Positions 2,080 to 5,451 of a DNA stretch of 64,000 bases are shown piece by piece (the stretch's first letter is position 1; each line of letters begins with the position of its first letter). The translations under genes and the position numbers were made by a program. The notes below the pieces were generated by a model that searched no databases, was not told the origin of the DNA, and saw only the letters and a list, made by a program, of their open reading frames with translations. Location: contig CM000436.1 of the NCBI GenBank assembly GCA_000165345.1, positions 480,001-544,000 on the forward strand, written 5' to 3'.

Positions 2080-5000
2080 ATGAACCGAAAGGTAGCAGGA
2101 ATACTTTCTTTAATATTGGTTCTATGCTTTCTTGGGCCTACATATCAGGCAAGTGGAGAAACTAGAAGTCTAAGACCTAATGATCAAAGTTCACAAATAG
2201 TAAACCCAGAATGGAGGTTTTTTACTAATGTTTTGGAGTTATTACTATTCCAACCGGGGAGGGCCATGGGCACACCTTGGCCAGAAAAGGGACCATACGA
2301 ATTTACCAAGTTATTTAATAATAATGATAAGCAAGATTTTTGTGAAAGATGCGTTAGATTAATGGACAATTGGGAGAATTCAGAGCCACATATGATTCTC
2401 TTTAGAGCTCCAAAATACTTTTCCAAATTTCCGCAGGTGTTTTACGTGGCTTGTGGATCTGTTGAATCGAAATTCTTACGTGATGAAAGTTCTAAAGGCG
2501 AAAATAATAATGAATCTGAATGTATTACTATTTACAACAAATTCAGTCTACACAAGTACTACGAAGGATTTAGTTCTGCTCCAACTTTAAGAAGACGTGC
2601 AGCATTCCCAGCTACACATACTGATCATAGACCATTTAAACCATTGTATGATCCATTATACAAGATACCTACAAAGACAACACAAATTAGAAAAACTACA
2701 ATTGATTACTCTAAGCACAAATATATTCCAATAATTCCAAAGAATACTGATAGTAAGCCAAGAGCTTCTTATCCAATTTCTCATACATCTGTGTTGGTCG
2801 ATTCAAAACATAGGTATGTTCCAATTACGCAGAAAGTTCCTGGACCTGATAGTCCTAAGAGTAGATACCCCAAGAACACATCTCATAAATACATTCCTAT
2901 TATTACGACAACTAAGAATGATGAAAATGCGGCCTTCCCAGCATCTAGAACTCAATATCCAACTAATCCAAATCATAAATTTGTTCCACCTGTAAATAAA
3001 CAATCTTCAAGCCATGACACAGCTTCTTTACCAGCTTCAAGAACTGGAGCTCTAATTGACTCAAATCACGGATATATTCCATTATATATGACATACAATT
3101 ACACCGAGAGTGCAGCATTCCCAGCTTCTAGAACCAGTTTCCCAGCTGATCCAAAGCATGGCTTTGTTCCTCTATATATTTTGGATAACTCAACAGAAAC
3201 AGCAGCTTTACCAGCTTCTAGAACTCGCTATCCTTCAGATATGTATCATAGATATATTCCATTATACATGGCATCCAATAATACTGAGAATGCAGCATCT
3301 CCAGCTTCTAGAACAAGGTTCCCAGTTAATACTAGGCACGGATTCATTCCTCTTTATATTATTTCTAACTATCATGAAACGGCATCTTCCCCAGCTTCCA
3401 GAACTCACTATCCAGTTGAACATAACCACGGCTTTATTCCTTTATATCAAAGGGTTTCATACTTTAATTTAACAGCATCTTTCCCAGCTTCAAGAACTAG
3501 TCAACCAACTGAGACCAAGCACAAATTTATTCCAATATTCGAGATTTACAACCAAACTGAGACTTCCTCACTCCCAGCTTCAAGAGTAGGAGCCATTATT
3601 GACACCAAGCATGGATATATTCCAATCTTCCAAAGAATTGCAAACAACGAAACTGCTTCATTCCCAGCTTCGAGGACAAGTCATCCCTCTGATCCAAATC
3701 ATAGATATATTCCTCTATTTGAGGTTATGGAAAACAATGAAACAGCATCTTTCCCAGCTTCTAGAACAAAGCTACCAGCTAACACTGAACATGGATATAT
3801 ACCTATTTTGGAGAGGATTTACTACCTTAATAGCACTGTAGCTCTTCCAATGTCTAGAGTAAGTGCTCCAATTGATACTAAGCACAATTATATCCCAGCT
3901 TTCAATAGTAATTTAGAGTATAATGGTGGAAATGCATCTTTCCCAGCTTCCAGGACTCAATATCCAGCTGATCCAAATCATGGTTTCATTCCTCTATTTA
4001 TGGTTGAGAACTCTACAGAAACTGCAGCATTCCCAGCTTCTAGAACAAAGTACCCAGCTAATACTGAGCATGGATTCGTTCCTCTATTTGAGTCTTCTAT
4101 ATTTGAAGGAAGAAACGCTTCTCTACCAGCATCAAGAACCCAATTCCAAATGGACTCTAGACATGCCTTTATTCCTCTATTTACTAACACGAACTATAGT
4201 GATCATAATGCATCTTTCCCAGCTTCTAGAACTCATTATCCAGCTGATCCAAATCATGGTTTCATTCCTCTATTTATGGTTGAGAACTCTACAGAAACTG
4301 CAGCATTCCCAGCTTCTAGAACAAAGTACCCAGCTAATACTGAGCATGGATTCGTTCCTCTATTTGAATCTTCAACATATGAAGGAGGAAACGCATCCTT
4401 ACCAGCCTCAAGAACTCAGTTCTTAGTGGATTCTAGACATGGTTTCATTCCTTTATTAATTTCAGATTATAGCTCCAACGAAACAGCTGGATTACCTGCT
4501 TCTAGAACCCATTATCCAACTGATACAATTCATGGTTTTGTGCCTTTAATTCCAGACTCTGAGTATAATGTTGGAAATGCATCTTTCCCAGCTTCCAGAA
4601 CTCAATATCCAGCTGATCCAAATCATGGTTTCATTCCTCTATTTATGGTTGAGAACTCTACAGAAACTGCAGCATTCCCAGCTTCTAGAACAAAGTACCC
4701 AGCTAATACTGAGCATGGATTCGTTCCTCTATTTGAATCTCCAACATATGAAGGAAGAAATGCATCTTTCCCTGCATCAAGAACTCAATTCCAAATGGAC
4801 CCTAATCATGGATTTGTTCCCTTATTTACAAAGTTATACCTTTATAATGATACTGCAGCTTTACCTGCTTCTAGAACTGGGCAACCTTCGGAAACAACCC
4901 ACGGATTTATTCCTCTCTTTGGATCTAATGAAAACTTTGAAACTTCATCTCTCCCAGCATCTAGAGTTAAGGCACCATCAAATCCCAATCATTCATATAT

Positions 5001-5451
5001 TCCTGTCATTCCTGAACACCTTGACCAAGAACATGCCGCAAAGCCCGCCTCTAGAACTGGAGCCCCTGCCCCGGGGGCGCCGGCGGGAAATCTCCCATAT
5101 ACAATATTGGTTTCAATTCCAAAGGCAGCATTACCGGTATCTCGTACAGATACATTATCAGAAAGTCATGCATTTGTTCCATTAGTAAAGGAAAGAGAAG
5201 ATATTGGTCCTAGAGCAGCATTCCCTGCAACTCATACATCGGTTGAAGCTCCAGGATTAGGAAGCCAGCAACCAGGAATTAACTGGGAACATTTCACTGA
5301 GGTACTTAAAGTCGACTCTGAAGGTAATCCATATGTTGACACTAAATACGGAAGAATTTATGGATTTGGTGATTTGGGTTCTATATTGTCTCAGCTTGAT
5401 CAAGCTGAGGCAATAGAAAATACCCCACAGCAGATTATCGAAGACCATTAA
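2080..5451 (+). CDS. Secreted tandem-repeat glycoprotein (about 29 copies of a 30-aa PASRT/HGFIPLF repeat)
   Basis: ORF 2044..5451 starts at a TTG. The first in-frame ATG is at 2080 (MNRKVAGILSLILVLCFLGPTYQASG), a classic signal peptide. The body is 30-aa repeats of the form [N-x-T/S]-E-T-A-A-F-P-A-S-R-T-x-Y-P-x-x-x-x-H-G-F-I-P-L-F. The ORFs on other frames and the opposite strand inside it are repeat artefacts. Confidence 0.75.
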   Translation: MNRKVAGILSLILVLCFLGPTYQASGETRSLRPNDQSSQIVNPEWRFFTNVLELLLFQPGRAMGTPWPEKGPYEFTKLFNNNDKQDFCERCVRLMDNWENSEPHMILFRAPKYFSKFPQVFYVACGSVESKFLRDESSKGENNNESECITIYNKFSLHKYYEGFSSAPTLRRRAAFPATHTDHRPFKPLYDPLYKIPTKTTQIRKTTIDYSKHKYIPIIPKNTDSKPRASYPISHTSVLVDSKHRYVPITQKVPGPDSPKSRYPKNTSHKYIPIITTTKNDENAAFPASRTQYPTNPNHKFVPPVNKQSSSHDTASLPASRTGALIDSNHGYIPLYMTYNYTESAAFPASRTSFPADPKHGFVPLYILDNSTETAALPASRTRYPSDMYHRYIPLYMASNNTENAASPASRTRFPVNTRHGFIPLYIISNYHETASSPASRTHYPVEHNHGFIPLYQRVSYFNLTASFPASRTSQPTETKHKFIPIFEIYNQTETSSLPASRVGAIIDTKHGYIPIFQRIANNETASFPASRTSHPSDPNHRYIPLFEVMENNETASFPASRTKLPANTEHGYIPILERIYYLNSTVALPMSRVSAPIDTKHNYIPAFNSNLEYNGGNASFPASRTQYPADPNHGFIPLFMVENSTETAAFPASRTKYPANTEHGFVPLFESSIFEGRNASLPASRTQFQMDSRHAFIPLFTNTNYSDHNASFPASRTHYPADPNHGFIPLFMVENSTETAAFPASRTKYPANTEHGFVPLFESSTYEGGNASLPASRTQFLVDSRHGFIPLLISDYSSNETAGLPASRTHYPTDTIHGFVPLIPDSEYNVGNASFPASRTQYPADPNHGFIPLFMVENSTETAAFPASRTKYPANTEHGFVPLFESPTYEGRNASFPASRTQFQMDPNHGFVPLFTKLYLYNDTAALPASRTGQPSETTHGFIPLFGSNENFETSSLPASRVKAPSNPNHSYIPVIPEHLDQEHAAKPASRTGAPAPGAPAGNLPYTILVSIPKAALPVSRTDTLSESHAFVPLVKEREDIGPRAAFPATHTSVEAPGLGSQQPGINWEHFTEVLKVDSEGNPYVDTKYGRIYGFGDLGSILSQLDQAEAIENTPQQIIEDH
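2590..5250 (+). repeat. Coding 90-bp tandem repeat array (about 29 units), including three near-identical higher-order blocks of about 190 bp at about 3931-4120, 4207-4395 and 4577-4765
   Basis: Direct reading shows ttcccagcttctagaac...catggtttcattcctctattt recurring every 90 bp. Long stretches are nearly nucleotide-identical between the three blocks. Confidence 0.85.

What the first reader, a model, noticed from the sequence alone, without database searches (positions are those of the whole stretch)
2080..5451. Secreted protein made of about 29 tandem 30-aa FPASRT...HGFIPLF repeats, each with a conserved N-glycosylation sequon
A clean signal peptide is followed by a 90-bp periodic array. Nearly every unit keeps N-x-(T/S)-E-T-A-(A/S)-F-P-A-S-R-T, then a basic or aromatic residue, Pro, roughly five variable residues, H-G-(F/Y)-(I/V)-P-L-(F/Y). 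The invariant Asn sequon and the PASRT and HG-aromatic-IPL cores point to selection on a glycosylated, probably extended, surface or secreted adhesin-like molecule. I do not recognise this repeat as any named Cryptosporidium family (gp40/15, mucins, MEDLE, SKSR, FGLN, TRAP). The first and last units carry a distinct RAAFPATHT variant, as if capping the array.
Basis: seen in the sequence. Interest (0 to 1): 0.85.

Follow-up and report, generated by a model that had tools for sequence, protein, structure and literature searches.

The report
Cryptosporidium secreted 30-residue repeat glycoprotein
This is a real, conserved Cryptosporidium parvum gene (cgd8_1770 by position) for a secreted protein built from about 29 proline-rich 30-residue repeats that nearly all carry a sugar-attachment site; it occurs only in this parasite genus and I found no study of its function.

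Summary
ATG 2080 to stop 5451 is one intron-free ORF of 1123 aa. It has a hydrophobic signal sequence, a 4-Cys helical head and a tribasic RRR site. Then come about 29 units with a 30-32 aa period, followed by a conserved 55-aa tail. There are 28 PASRT/PATHT and 27 HxYxP motifs, against about 0.02 expected by chance. An N-x-S/T sequon sits in the linker of 19 of the 20 central units.

The window is C. parvum chromosome 8, and primer and accession mapping place the gene at cgd8_1770. Syntenic orthologues exist in C. hominis, tyzzeri, meleagridis, bovis and andersoni; C. felis, ryanae, xiaoi and serpentis have sequence homologues. A profile scan of 1.84 billion proteins found nothing outside the genus. 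Pfam and PDB gave no match, and two AlphaFold runs gave no confident fold.

dN/dS is 0.15-0.22, and whole units are gained and lost between species. The annotated gastric C. andersoni protein has only six units, all of the "cap" type RAAFPATHT. The caps are therefore ancestral edge units, not a special capping device.

My best reading is a secreted, N-glycosylated, modular structural or spacer glycoprotein. Stage and location are unknown. It is a new repeat type within a familiar class, and of moderate interest.

The parts
1654..1675 (+). Promoter-like element: palindromic E2F-type site TGGCGCCA (1654-1661) followed by CCCGCC (1670-1675), 426 bp upstream of the ATG
   Evidence: Read. The same pair lies 398-426 bp upstream of the ATG in C. 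hominis, C. meleagridis (two assemblies) and C. tyzzeri. TGGCGCCA is the commonest C. parvum upstream motif and does not indicate stage (PMC3734150). It was not found upstream of the C. andersoni gene, and C. bovis has only an E2F-like core.
2080..5451 (+). Complete intron-free coding sequence, 1123 aa plus stop; cgd8_1770 by position
   Evidence: ORF list and translation. The exact protein is on four >1 Mb NCBI contigs, including GCA_031892065.1 CP029787.1. It is flanked by cgd8_1760 (primer mapping) and cgd8_1780 = Q5CW35, with cgd8_1790 next. dN/dS is 0.22 against C. hominis and 0.15 against C. tyzzeri.
2080..2154 (+). Signal-peptide-like N-terminus (MNRKVAGILSLILVLCFLGPTYQAS)
   Evidence: This is the only strongly hydrophobic 19-residue window in the protein (Kyte-Doolittle 1.8). 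All orthologues start with an equivalent hydrophobic segment. The cleavage site was not predicted because no SignalP was available.
2155..2589 (+). N-terminal head domain (aa 26-170) with four conserved Cys (88, 91, 125, 148) and the invariant block NVLELLLFQPGR.MGTPWP
   Evidence: Invariant columns in alignment A1. The domain is also present in C. andersoni and C. serpentis. AlphaFold draws helices here at low confidence. dN/dS is 0.05 against C. hominis. No Pfam match even at E<=10.
2590..2598 (+). Tribasic RRR (aa 171-173) at the head/array junction; candidate proprotein-convertase or subtilisin site
   Evidence: APTLRRRA[AS]FPATHT is invariant in all intestinal-species orthologues, and the gastric species have KRR. 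Cleavage is inferred, not shown.
2599..2910 (+). About four degenerate repeat units (aa 174-277), beginning with the His-type unit RAAFPATHT
   Evidence: Two 55-aa anchor intervals, each holding two HxYxP motifs. The first unit is orthologous to unit 1 of C. andersoni.
2911..5208 (+). Regular array: 25 units of 30-32 aa (aa 278-1043). Consensus: [AS]-[FLY]-P-A-S-R-T-x-[YFVI]-P-x-D-x-x-H-[GS]-[YF]-[IV]-P, then a variable linker with N-x-S/T
   Evidence: Unit table. Column statistics over 99 units from seven proteins of six species: P 99/99, R 93, T 90, H 90, [YF] 93, second P 99/99. Sequon registers are -4, -6 and -8.
3916..4836 (+). Recently amplified part of the array: a three-unit higher-order repeat in three copies (units 14-16, 17-19, 21-23), interrupted by unit 20
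   Evidence: Copies are 73-98% identical at DNA level (first two unit types 88-98%, third 73-77%). TRF periods of 276 and 369 bp. C. tyzzeri lacks three units here, and C. hominis lacks two units further upstream.
5209..5448 (+). Last His-type half unit (PRAAFPATHT) and the conserved C-terminal domain (WEHFTEVLKVDSEGNPYVDTKYGRIYGFGDLGSILSQL); hydrophilic end, no GPI-type tail
   Evidence: Invariant columns in A1. Conserved in C. felis and C. andersoni. The short EWEH[FY]..[VI]L.L motif is shared with the start of the head domain (E 8e-4 for one comparison).

Best explanation
**Shown.** This is a genuine, genus-wide single-copy gene of Cryptosporidium. It is the C. parvum chromosome 8 locus between cgd8_1760 and cgd8_1780, i.e. 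cgd8_1770.

The encoded soluble secretory protein has a fixed scaffold:
- a signal sequence;
- a 145-aa Cys-containing head;
- a tribasic junction;
- edge repeat units;
- a 55-aa tail.

Between the edges lies an expandable middle made of strictly periodic 30-aa proline/aromatic/His units. The middle has grown from two units in the annotated C. andersoni protein to about 20-25 in intestinal species. It still gains and loses whole units, while the protein sequence stays under purifying selection. The linker of almost every middle unit keeps an N-glycosylation sequon, although its register drifts.

**Inferred.**
- The protein enters the ER and is N-glycosylated about once per unit with the short, barely processed oligomannose glycans described for C. 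parvum.
- It may be cut at RRR by a subtilisin or furin-like protease.
- It acts outside the cell as a long modular structural or spacer glycoprotein, a glycan-decorated rod or tether. The repeat core ([FY]PA[ST][HR]T.YP...HG[FY].P) would provide a reiterated contact or cross-linking motif, and the two terminal domains would provide the attachment points.
- Possible locations are an extracellular matrix of the parasite (oocyst wall or glycocalyx, sporozoite tethers) or the parasite-host interface.
- Stage and location are not known.
For: **Real, intact gene**
- The exact protein is encoded on four >1 Mb assemblies.
- Intact orthologous ORFs of 1031-1123 aa occur in C. hominis, C. tyzzeri and C. 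meleagridis. Those of C. bovis, C. ryanae and C. xiaoi are 979-1085 aa, and C. andersoni has 388 aa.
- Gene order is the same in C. hominis, C. meleagridis, C. tyzzeri, C. andersoni and C. bovis: ubiquitin-like gene, target, then a ~700-aa gene on the opposite strand.
- dN/dS is 0.15-0.22 overall, 0.14-0.21 in the array and 0.05 in the head.

**Secretory route**
- There is a single N-terminal hydrophobic segment and no other hydrophobic stretch. There is no KDEL/HDEL.

**Periodicity and core conservation**.

**Sequons**
- Linker sequons occur in 19 of 20 central units, in three registers. Orthologues also keep them.
- N-glycans in C. parvum are short and barely processed and favour NxT sites (title of Haserick 2017b, as cited in PMC9713705). 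Thirteen of the 20 linker sequons are NxT.

**Scaffold plus expandable middle**
- C. andersoni units 1, 4, 5 and 6 correspond to C. parvum units 1, 26, 27 and 28.
- Indels between species are whole units.

**Genus restriction**
- A profile HMM scan of 1.84e9 representative proteins returned only Cryptosporidium sequences and one spurious repeat ORF.
Against: - No expression, proteomic or localisation datum for cgd8_1770 could be retrieved.
- The gene is absent from the 3,302-gene qPCR set of Mauzy 2012. It is also absent from the held supplements of two oocyst-wall and oocyst proteomics papers and of the AP2-F paper.
- Strict conservation of aromatic and hydrophobic positions within the unit would fit a folded repeat as well as an extended one. 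AlphaFold gave no usable model either way.
- Glycan occupancy, RRR cleavage and any binding partner are untested.
- The C. andersoni array may be under-counted. Its two middle units are 94% identical at the DNA level, so copies could have been collapsed in assembly.
Confidence: 0.5

Rival explanations
1. Folded repeat lectin or adhesin. The 30-aa units fold into a regular beta-hairpin, solenoid or superhelical array that multivalently binds a host or parasite ligand. The protein would be discharged from sporozoite or merozoite secretory organelles during attachment.
For: - Aromatic, hydrophobic and Pro positions are conserved at fixed spacing in 99 units from six species.
- The low-confidence AlphaFold models place two short strands per unit.
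- The protein is secreted and soluble.
- Copy number varies between species, as is common for adhesins.
Against: - No known adhesive domain is present.
- No confident fold was obtained, even with a 34-row repeat alignment.
- No PDB relative was found.
- The array is under purifying rather than diversifying selection.
- The gene is named in none of the held papers or held supplements on secreted or invasion proteins that were checked.
Confidence: 0.25
2. Polyprotein precursor. The array is cut at basic residues into many about 30-aa (glyco)peptides, as in fungal Kex2-processed repeat proteins. The peptides then assemble or act individually.
For: - A conserved RRR/KRR lies immediately before the first unit.
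- In C. andersoni five of six units start with R-AA[FY]PA and the sixth with K-AA.
- In intestinal species every unit contains an Arg, within PASR-T.
Against: - Unit boundaries in the intestinal species carry no basic or dibasic residue. They read ETAAFP, NASFP or ETGSLP.
- The only dibasic or tribasic site is the single head junction.
- The terminal domains are conserved as if the protein works as one piece.
Confidence: 0.08
3. Artefact or dead locus. The array would be an assembly artefact, or the ORF would not be expressed.
For: - A short-read assembly of a related isolate breaks and mis-joins inside the array (L002 and L003).
- Two C. meleagridis assemblies differ by two units.
- No expression record was found.
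Against: - The 1123-aa protein is identical on four chromosome-scale contigs.
- Most units are only 50-70% identical at DNA level, so most of the array cannot be collapsed or mis-assembled easily.
- The reading frame is intact in ten proteins from eight species with full-length ORFs, with dN/dS well below 1 and conserved synteny.
Confidence: 0.03

Closest known systems
Orthologous Cryptosporidium proteins annotated 'YLP motif containing protein' (C. bovis, C. xiaoi), 'HxYxP motif containing repeat protein' (C. ryanae), 'XP motif-containing protein' (C. felis) and hypothetical protein cand_022510 (C. andersoni)
   Same: Same head domain, RRR/KRR junction, 30-aa unit, tail domain and, for C. bovis and C. 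andersoni, chromosomal neighbours.
   Different: Unit number differs: 6 in the annotated C. andersoni protein, 22-25 anchors in the C. bovis group and 25-28 in the C. parvum group. The unit flavour differs too: His type in gastric species and Arg type in intestinal species. Each lineage has homogenised its own higher-order repeats. None of these proteins has a described function.
Cryptosporidium mucin-like glycoproteins (gp900, gp40/15, CpMuc family)
   Same: Secreted, repetitive, glycosylated and parasite-specific, with length-variable arrays.
   Different: Mucins are defined by long Ser/Thr tracts carrying O-GalNAc. Here the longest Ser/Thr run is 3, the units are 30-aa Pro/aromatic/His modules, and the conserved glycosylation signal is an N-sequon.
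Cryptosporidium oocyst wall proteins (COWP1-9)
   Same: Signal peptide, tandem arrays, His-containing repeats, genus-wide.
   Different: COWPs are built from Cys-rich domains with Cys every 10-12 residues (bioRxiv 10.64898/2026.05.05.722909). This array contains no Cys at all, and the only four mature-protein Cys are in the head.
Proline-rich structural glycoproteins and His/Tyr-rich structural proteins of other extracellular matrices (plant HRGP/PRP, arthropod cuticle proteins, Tyr-rich coccidian oocyst wall proteins); comparison from general knowledge
   Same: Secreted and periodic, with Pro, aromatic and His residues at fixed positions. They are long modular molecules whose repeat number varies.
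   Different: No sequence relationship. The only Pfam trace (Chitin_bind_4, 18.4 bits against a cut-off of 25) is in C. andersoni alone and is no better than unrelated sub-threshold hits in other orthologues. No evidence of cross-linking chemistry.

Membership tests
Cryptosporidium 'YLP/HxYxP-motif repeat protein' orthologue group (unnamed in Pfam) | Conserved head domain (NVLELLLFQPGR.MGTPWP, 4 Cys) followed by [RK]RR and A[AS]FPA[TS]HT | tested here: met
   Invariant columns in A1. Also present in C. andersoni and C. serpentis.
Cryptosporidium 'YLP/HxYxP-motif repeat protein' orthologue group (unnamed in Pfam) | 30-aa units with [FYL]P.[STY][RH]T ... H.[YF].P, and a conserved tail (WEH[FY]..[VI]LK.D..G.PYV) | tested here: met
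Cryptosporidium 'YLP/HxYxP-motif repeat protein' orthologue group (unnamed in Pfam) | Conserved position between the ubiquitin-like ~1240-aa gene and the ~700-aa gene on the opposite strand | tested here: met
Mucin-type glycoproteins (gp900, gp40/15, CpMuc) | Long Ser/Thr-rich tracts | tested here: not met
   The longest Ser/Thr run is 3 residues. Ser+Thr make up 19% of the array, but they are dispersed.
COWP family | Periodic Cys-rich domains | tested here: not met
   No Cys between aa 149 and 1123.
Possible oocyst wall proteins POWP1-5 (Chatterjee 2010) | Being one of the five genes so named | tested here: not met
   Indirect test. All five POWPs have expression profiles in the Mauzy qPCR data (PMC3734150). 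The primer list there jumps from cgd8_1760 to cgd8_1790, with no cgd8_1770. The original paper could not be read.
TRAP/TSP and other domain-based apicomplexan adhesins | TSP1, Apple, EGF, Kazal, Sushi or similar Pfam domains | tested here: not met
   No Pfam family at E<=1 for the whole protein or at E<=10 for the head and tail.
Subtelomeric secreted families (MEDLE, SKSR, FGLN, NFDQ, WYLE, GGC) | The eponymous sequence motifs | tested here: not met
   All motif counts are 0. The locus is internal, about 470 kb into a 1.34 Mb chromosome.
Rebers-Riddiford cuticle proteins (PF00379 Chitin_bind_4) | Match to the family profile above the gathering score | tested here: not met
   18.4 bits against a cut-off of 25, in C. 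andersoni only, covering profile positions 46-64 of 66. It is absent from all other orthologues, which give unrelated noise hits.
N-glycoproteins of C. parvum | Entry into the ER, and N-x-S/T sequons | tested here: met
   Signal-type N-terminus and 23 sequons, 20 of them in array linkers.
N-glycoproteins of C. parvum | Sites actually occupied | not testable with these tools
   The glycoproteomics paper (Haserick 2017b, PMC5393390) is not held.

The most novel reading that the evidence does not exclude
The repeat core may be a niche-tuned release switch. In the gastric species every sampled unit carries His at the fifth core position: PA[TS]HT in 6 of 6 C. andersoni units and 2 of 2 in the C. 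serpentis fragment. In all eight intestinal species sampled, the expanded middle units carry Arg (PASRT). If the protein is a wall, suture or tether component, His would make the array acid-responsive in the stomach. One Arg per unit would make it trypsin-cleavable in the small intestine. The array would then act as a fuse that lets go at the site where the species excysts. The head and tail share an EWEH[FY]..[VI]L.L motif, which could also allow head-to-tail assembly into fibrils.
Probability: 0.06. Interest if true: 0.75.

Novelty: new variant of a known kind. Interest (0 to 1): 0.4.

Why it matters
Cryptosporidium is a leading cause of childhood diarrhoea. There is no vaccine, and its extracellular structures (oocyst wall, sporozoite tethers, host interface) are only partly inventoried.

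A genus-wide, single-copy, selectively maintained secreted glycoprotein that escapes every domain database is a reasonable candidate component of one of these structures. It is also a possible antigen or glycan carrier.

Its whole-unit length changes between species and assemblies could serve as a typing marker. They also warn that short-read assemblies mis-state this gene.

The contrast between six His-type units in the annotated gastric-species protein and about 25 Arg-type units in intestinal species is a concrete, testable lead on niche adaptation.

Tried and rejected
**Structure**
- AlphaFold2 on the full protein with four orthologues gave mean pLDDT 28.5.
- AlphaFold2 on a six-unit block with a 34-row alignment of repeat blocks gave pLDDT 35.1.
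- Neither model is usable, so no fold search was run.

**Solved structures**
- PDB sequence searches with the family profile and with the repeat profile found nothing. The only listed match was an asparaginase at E 0.41.

**Pfam**
- No family was found at E<=1.
- At E<=10, different orthologues give unrelated sub-threshold hits: Chitin_bind_4, Pyrophosphatase, SNU71_N and DUF6615. I treated these as noise.

**Homology searches**
- The word-indexed protein search with only the head region returned nothing, although orthologues share 12-residue exact words. That tool's negatives are therefore weak.
- P0015 from the exhaustive scan is a translated satellite-like repeat, not a relative.

**POWP1 hypothesis**
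- I considered that this is the N-glycosylated POWP1 of Haserick 2017. I rejected it indirectly, from the absence of cgd8_1770 in the Mauzy primer set.

**Literature**
- No paper in the library names cgd8_1750 to cgd8_1780, the guessed neighbouring CPATCC gene identifiers (CPATCC_003994, CPATCC_003996), cand_022510, 'HxYxP', or a peptide containing FPASR in a Cryptosporidium context.
- Chatterjee 2010 and Haserick 2017b are not held.
- Supplements of PMC9508764, PMC12548878 and PMC10233709 do not list the gene. Two further papers have no held supplements.

**Promoter motifs**
- Only an E2F-type site is present. It does not indicate stage.

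
Full report
**1. What is in the sequence**

The finding's coordinates are exact. The ORF at 2044..5451 (+) has its first ATG at 2080 and encodes 1123 residues. The protein has five parts:
- It starts with MNRKVAGILSLILVLCFLGPTYQAS. This is the only strongly hydrophobic segment in the whole protein. There is no C-terminal hydrophobic tail and no KDEL/HDEL.
- A head of about 145 residues follows, holding the only four Cys of the mature protein (aa 88, 91, 125, 148).
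- The head ends in APTLRRR.
- The array follows.
- The last 55-80 residues form a non-repetitive tail.

Within the array there are 28 anchors of the type P[AMVI]S[RH][TV] or PATHT, and 27 H-x-[FY]-[IV]-P motifs. Residue shuffles give about 0.02 of each. From aa 287 to 1048 the anchors are 30-32 residues apart. The two preceding 55-residue intervals each hold two degenerate units. The total is therefore about 29-30 units.

Tandem Repeats Finder sees the same array at the DNA level, with periods of 93, 180/183, 276 and 369 bp. Most units are old, with pairwise DNA identity of 50-70%. One three-unit higher-order repeat was amplified recently. It covers units 14-16, 17-19 and 21-23. Its first two unit types are 88-98% identical between copies and the third is 73-77% identical.

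**2. The sequon claim**

The protein has 23 N-x-S/T sites, against 11.5 +/- 3 in shuffles. Twenty of them lie in the variable linker just upstream of [FL]PASRT, in 19 of the 20 central units (units 5-24). Thirteen are NxT and seven NxS.

The Asn is not fixed in position. It sits 4, 6 or 8 residues before the anchor Pro. Orthologues also keep sequons in this linker, again in their own registers, for example SNETYNETGSLPSSRT in the C. bovis group and VVNRTDPED in C. andersoni.

What is maintained is a glycosylation site per unit, not a particular residue. C. parvum N-glycans are short and barely processed and favour Thr sites (Haserick 2017b, as cited in PMC9713705). Occupancy here is untested.

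**3. Where the window comes from and which gene this is**

The exact protein is encoded on four >1 Mb NCBI contigs, for example GCA_031892065.1 CP029787.1 at 473,733-477,104. The gene identity rests on its neighbours:
- The convergent neighbour at 6063..8228 (-) is EAK89383.1 / Q5CW35 of C. parvum Iowa II. An oocyst-wall proteome table lists it as cgd8_1780.
- Published qPCR primers (Mauzy 2012 supplement) place cgd8_1790 at 9284..10726.
- The same primer set places cgd8_1830, cgd8_1840 and cgd8_1850 further on.
- It places cgd8_1760 in the upstream ubiquitin-like gene of about 1240 aa.
- RAD25 (cgd8_1940) is at 51210..53717.

The target is therefore cgd8_1770 by position.

**4. Relatives**

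The word-indexed search returned three full-length homologues at 40-43% BLASTP identity:
- C. xiaoi and C. bovis, 'YLP motif containing protein';
- C. ryanae, 'HxYxP motif containing repeat protein'.

A profile of the four sequences was scanned with HMMER against 1.84 billion representative proteins. It found only Cryptosporidium sequences and one unrelated translated repeat:
- a C. felis fragment, 'XP motif-containing protein';
- a partial C. serpentis protein;
- through its cluster, C. andersoni cand_022510 (388 aa).

Loci fetched through the neighbour's orthologues gave intact ORFs in C. hominis (1062 aa), C. tyzzeri (1031 aa) and two C. meleagridis assemblies (1052 and 1112 aa).

Gene order is the same in C. 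andersoni and C. bovis: ubiquitin-like gene, target, then the ~700-aa gene on the other strand. The family is thus genus-wide, apparently single-copy and positionally conserved. No second copy lies in the window. There was no Pfam match and no PDB relative.

**5. How the array evolves**

Between C. parvum, C. hominis and C. tyzzeri all indels are whole units, of two and three units. The two C. meleagridis assemblies differ by two units. C. meleagridis has homogenised its own two-unit higher-order repeat.

dN/dS is 0.22 against C. hominis and 0.15 against C. tyzzeri. It is 0.14-0.21 inside the array and 0.05 in the head. The protein sequence of the units is therefore constrained while their number is free to change.

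C. andersoni has six units of exactly 30 residues. Its units 1, 4, 5 and 6 correspond to C. parvum units 1, 26, 27 and 28. For example, RAAFPASHTNYPAPGPGSGDIPFTVVIPVI matches HAAKPASRTGAPAPGAPAGNLPYTILVSIP. Only the two middle units correspond to the about 23-25 middle units of the intestinal species.

All C. andersoni units, and the two units visible in the C. serpentis fragment, are of the His type (R-A-A-[FY]-P-[AV]-[TS]-H-T). The C. parvum 'caps' are therefore the ancestral unit type surviving at the array edges, where concerted evolution is weakest. The Arg type (PASRT) spread with the expansion.

One caveat applies. The two middle C. andersoni units are 94% identical at the DNA level, so further copies may have been collapsed in that assembly.

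**6. Structure**

AlphaFold2 was uninformative twice. The full-length run gave pLDDT 28.5. A six-unit block with 34 repeat-block rows gave pLDDT 35.1. The models draw helices in the head and two short strands per unit, but at confidences that allow no conclusion.

Three invariant Pro per unit and the strict conservation of aromatic and hydrophobic positions fit two readings equally well: a regular non-globular repeat, or a reiterated linear motif.

**7. Function**

**Shown:** a secretory, soluble, genus-specific protein under purifying selection. It has a fixed head and tail and an expandable glycosylation-competent array.

**Inferred:**
- It is N-glycosylated about once per unit.
- It may be processed at the invariant RRR/KRR junction.
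- It serves as an elongated modular structural or spacer glycoprotein in an extracellular parasite structure or at the host interface.

I could not retrieve any stage or location evidence. The gene is not in the Mauzy qPCR set, nor in the held supplements of three relevant papers. No paper in the library names it.

The upstream region carries a conserved E2F-type site pair, 398-426 bp before the ATG in four species. This motif is ubiquitous in C. parvum promoters and does not indicate stage.

A short-read contig of a C. hominis-like isolate begins about 170 bp upstream of the ATG and mis-joins inside the array. This shows how fragile short-read assemblies are at this locus. It does not show transcription.

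**8. Rivals**

- **Folded multivalent adhesin (0.25).** It cannot be excluded.
- **Polyprotein cut into 30-residue peptides (0.08).** It has support only in the gastric species, where each unit starts with Arg or Lys.
- **Artefact or pseudogene (0.03).** It is contradicted by identical sequence in four assemblies, divergent units, intact frames in eight species, synteny and low dN/dS.

**9. Novelty and verdict**

The gene is annotated but unstudied. Its repeat is unlike any curated family, yet it belongs to a familiar class: parasite-specific secreted tandem-repeat glycoproteins. I rate it a new variant of a known kind, with interest 0.4.

The most novel reading not excluded is that the His-to-Arg change in the unit core, together with the array expansion, adapts a wall or tether component to acid (gastric) or trypsin (intestinal) release. 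That contrast is confounded with phylogeny and rests on one or two gastric sequences, so I give it about 6%.

Noticed in passing
window 5955-5975: TGCATGCA followed by TTTGGCGCCC lies in the 3'-to-3' intergenic space between the convergent genes cgd8_1770 and cgd8_1780. These are the AP2_1-like and E2F-like promoter motifs of C. parvum. No promoter is expected there, so this may mark an unannotated or antisense transcript.
   Followed up: no
window 6063-8228 (-): cgd8_1780 (Q5CW35) is a 701-aa genus-specific protein with a hydrophobic N-terminus and no Pfam domain. It was detected with 3 peptides in an oocyst-wall-enriched proteome (PMC9508764 supplement). It is conserved next to the repeat gene in all six species whose loci were fetched.
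   Followed up: partly
window 39684-39881: A non-coding tandem array of a 33-35 bp unit (5.7 copies, about 70% matches) lies between the phosphomannose isomerase gene and the 3400-aa ORF. No ORF of 40 aa or more covers it.
   Followed up: partly
window 16731-16802: A (TA)36 microsatellite lies just past the 5' end of the DEAD-box helicase ORF (15472..16692, minus strand). It could serve as a typing marker.
   Followed up: no
window 905-2079; L004 14531-14713, L005 14634-14744, L007 14401-14565: The intergenic region upstream of the repeat gene is unusually long for C. parvum (1.17 kb). Annotators of C. hominis, C. meleagridis and C. tyzzeri called small ORFs of 36-60 aa inside it on the opposite strand. 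These are probably spurious, but I did not examine them.
   Followed up: no
L002 1-1945 and L003 1-1196 (run ERR11505490 / ERZ21852385): Short-read contigs of a C. hominis-like isolate (96.7% identical) both start about 170 bp upstream of the ATG. L002 is chimeric inside the array, giving a truncated 336-aa product. This shows that the gene is mis-assembled in short-read data.
   Followed up: partly
window 35600-35750: An extremely AT-rich stretch with several overlapping low-score tandem repeats lies between the 913-aa ORF and the ENTH-domain gene. The enclosing 2-kb window has 21% G+C.
   Followed up: no
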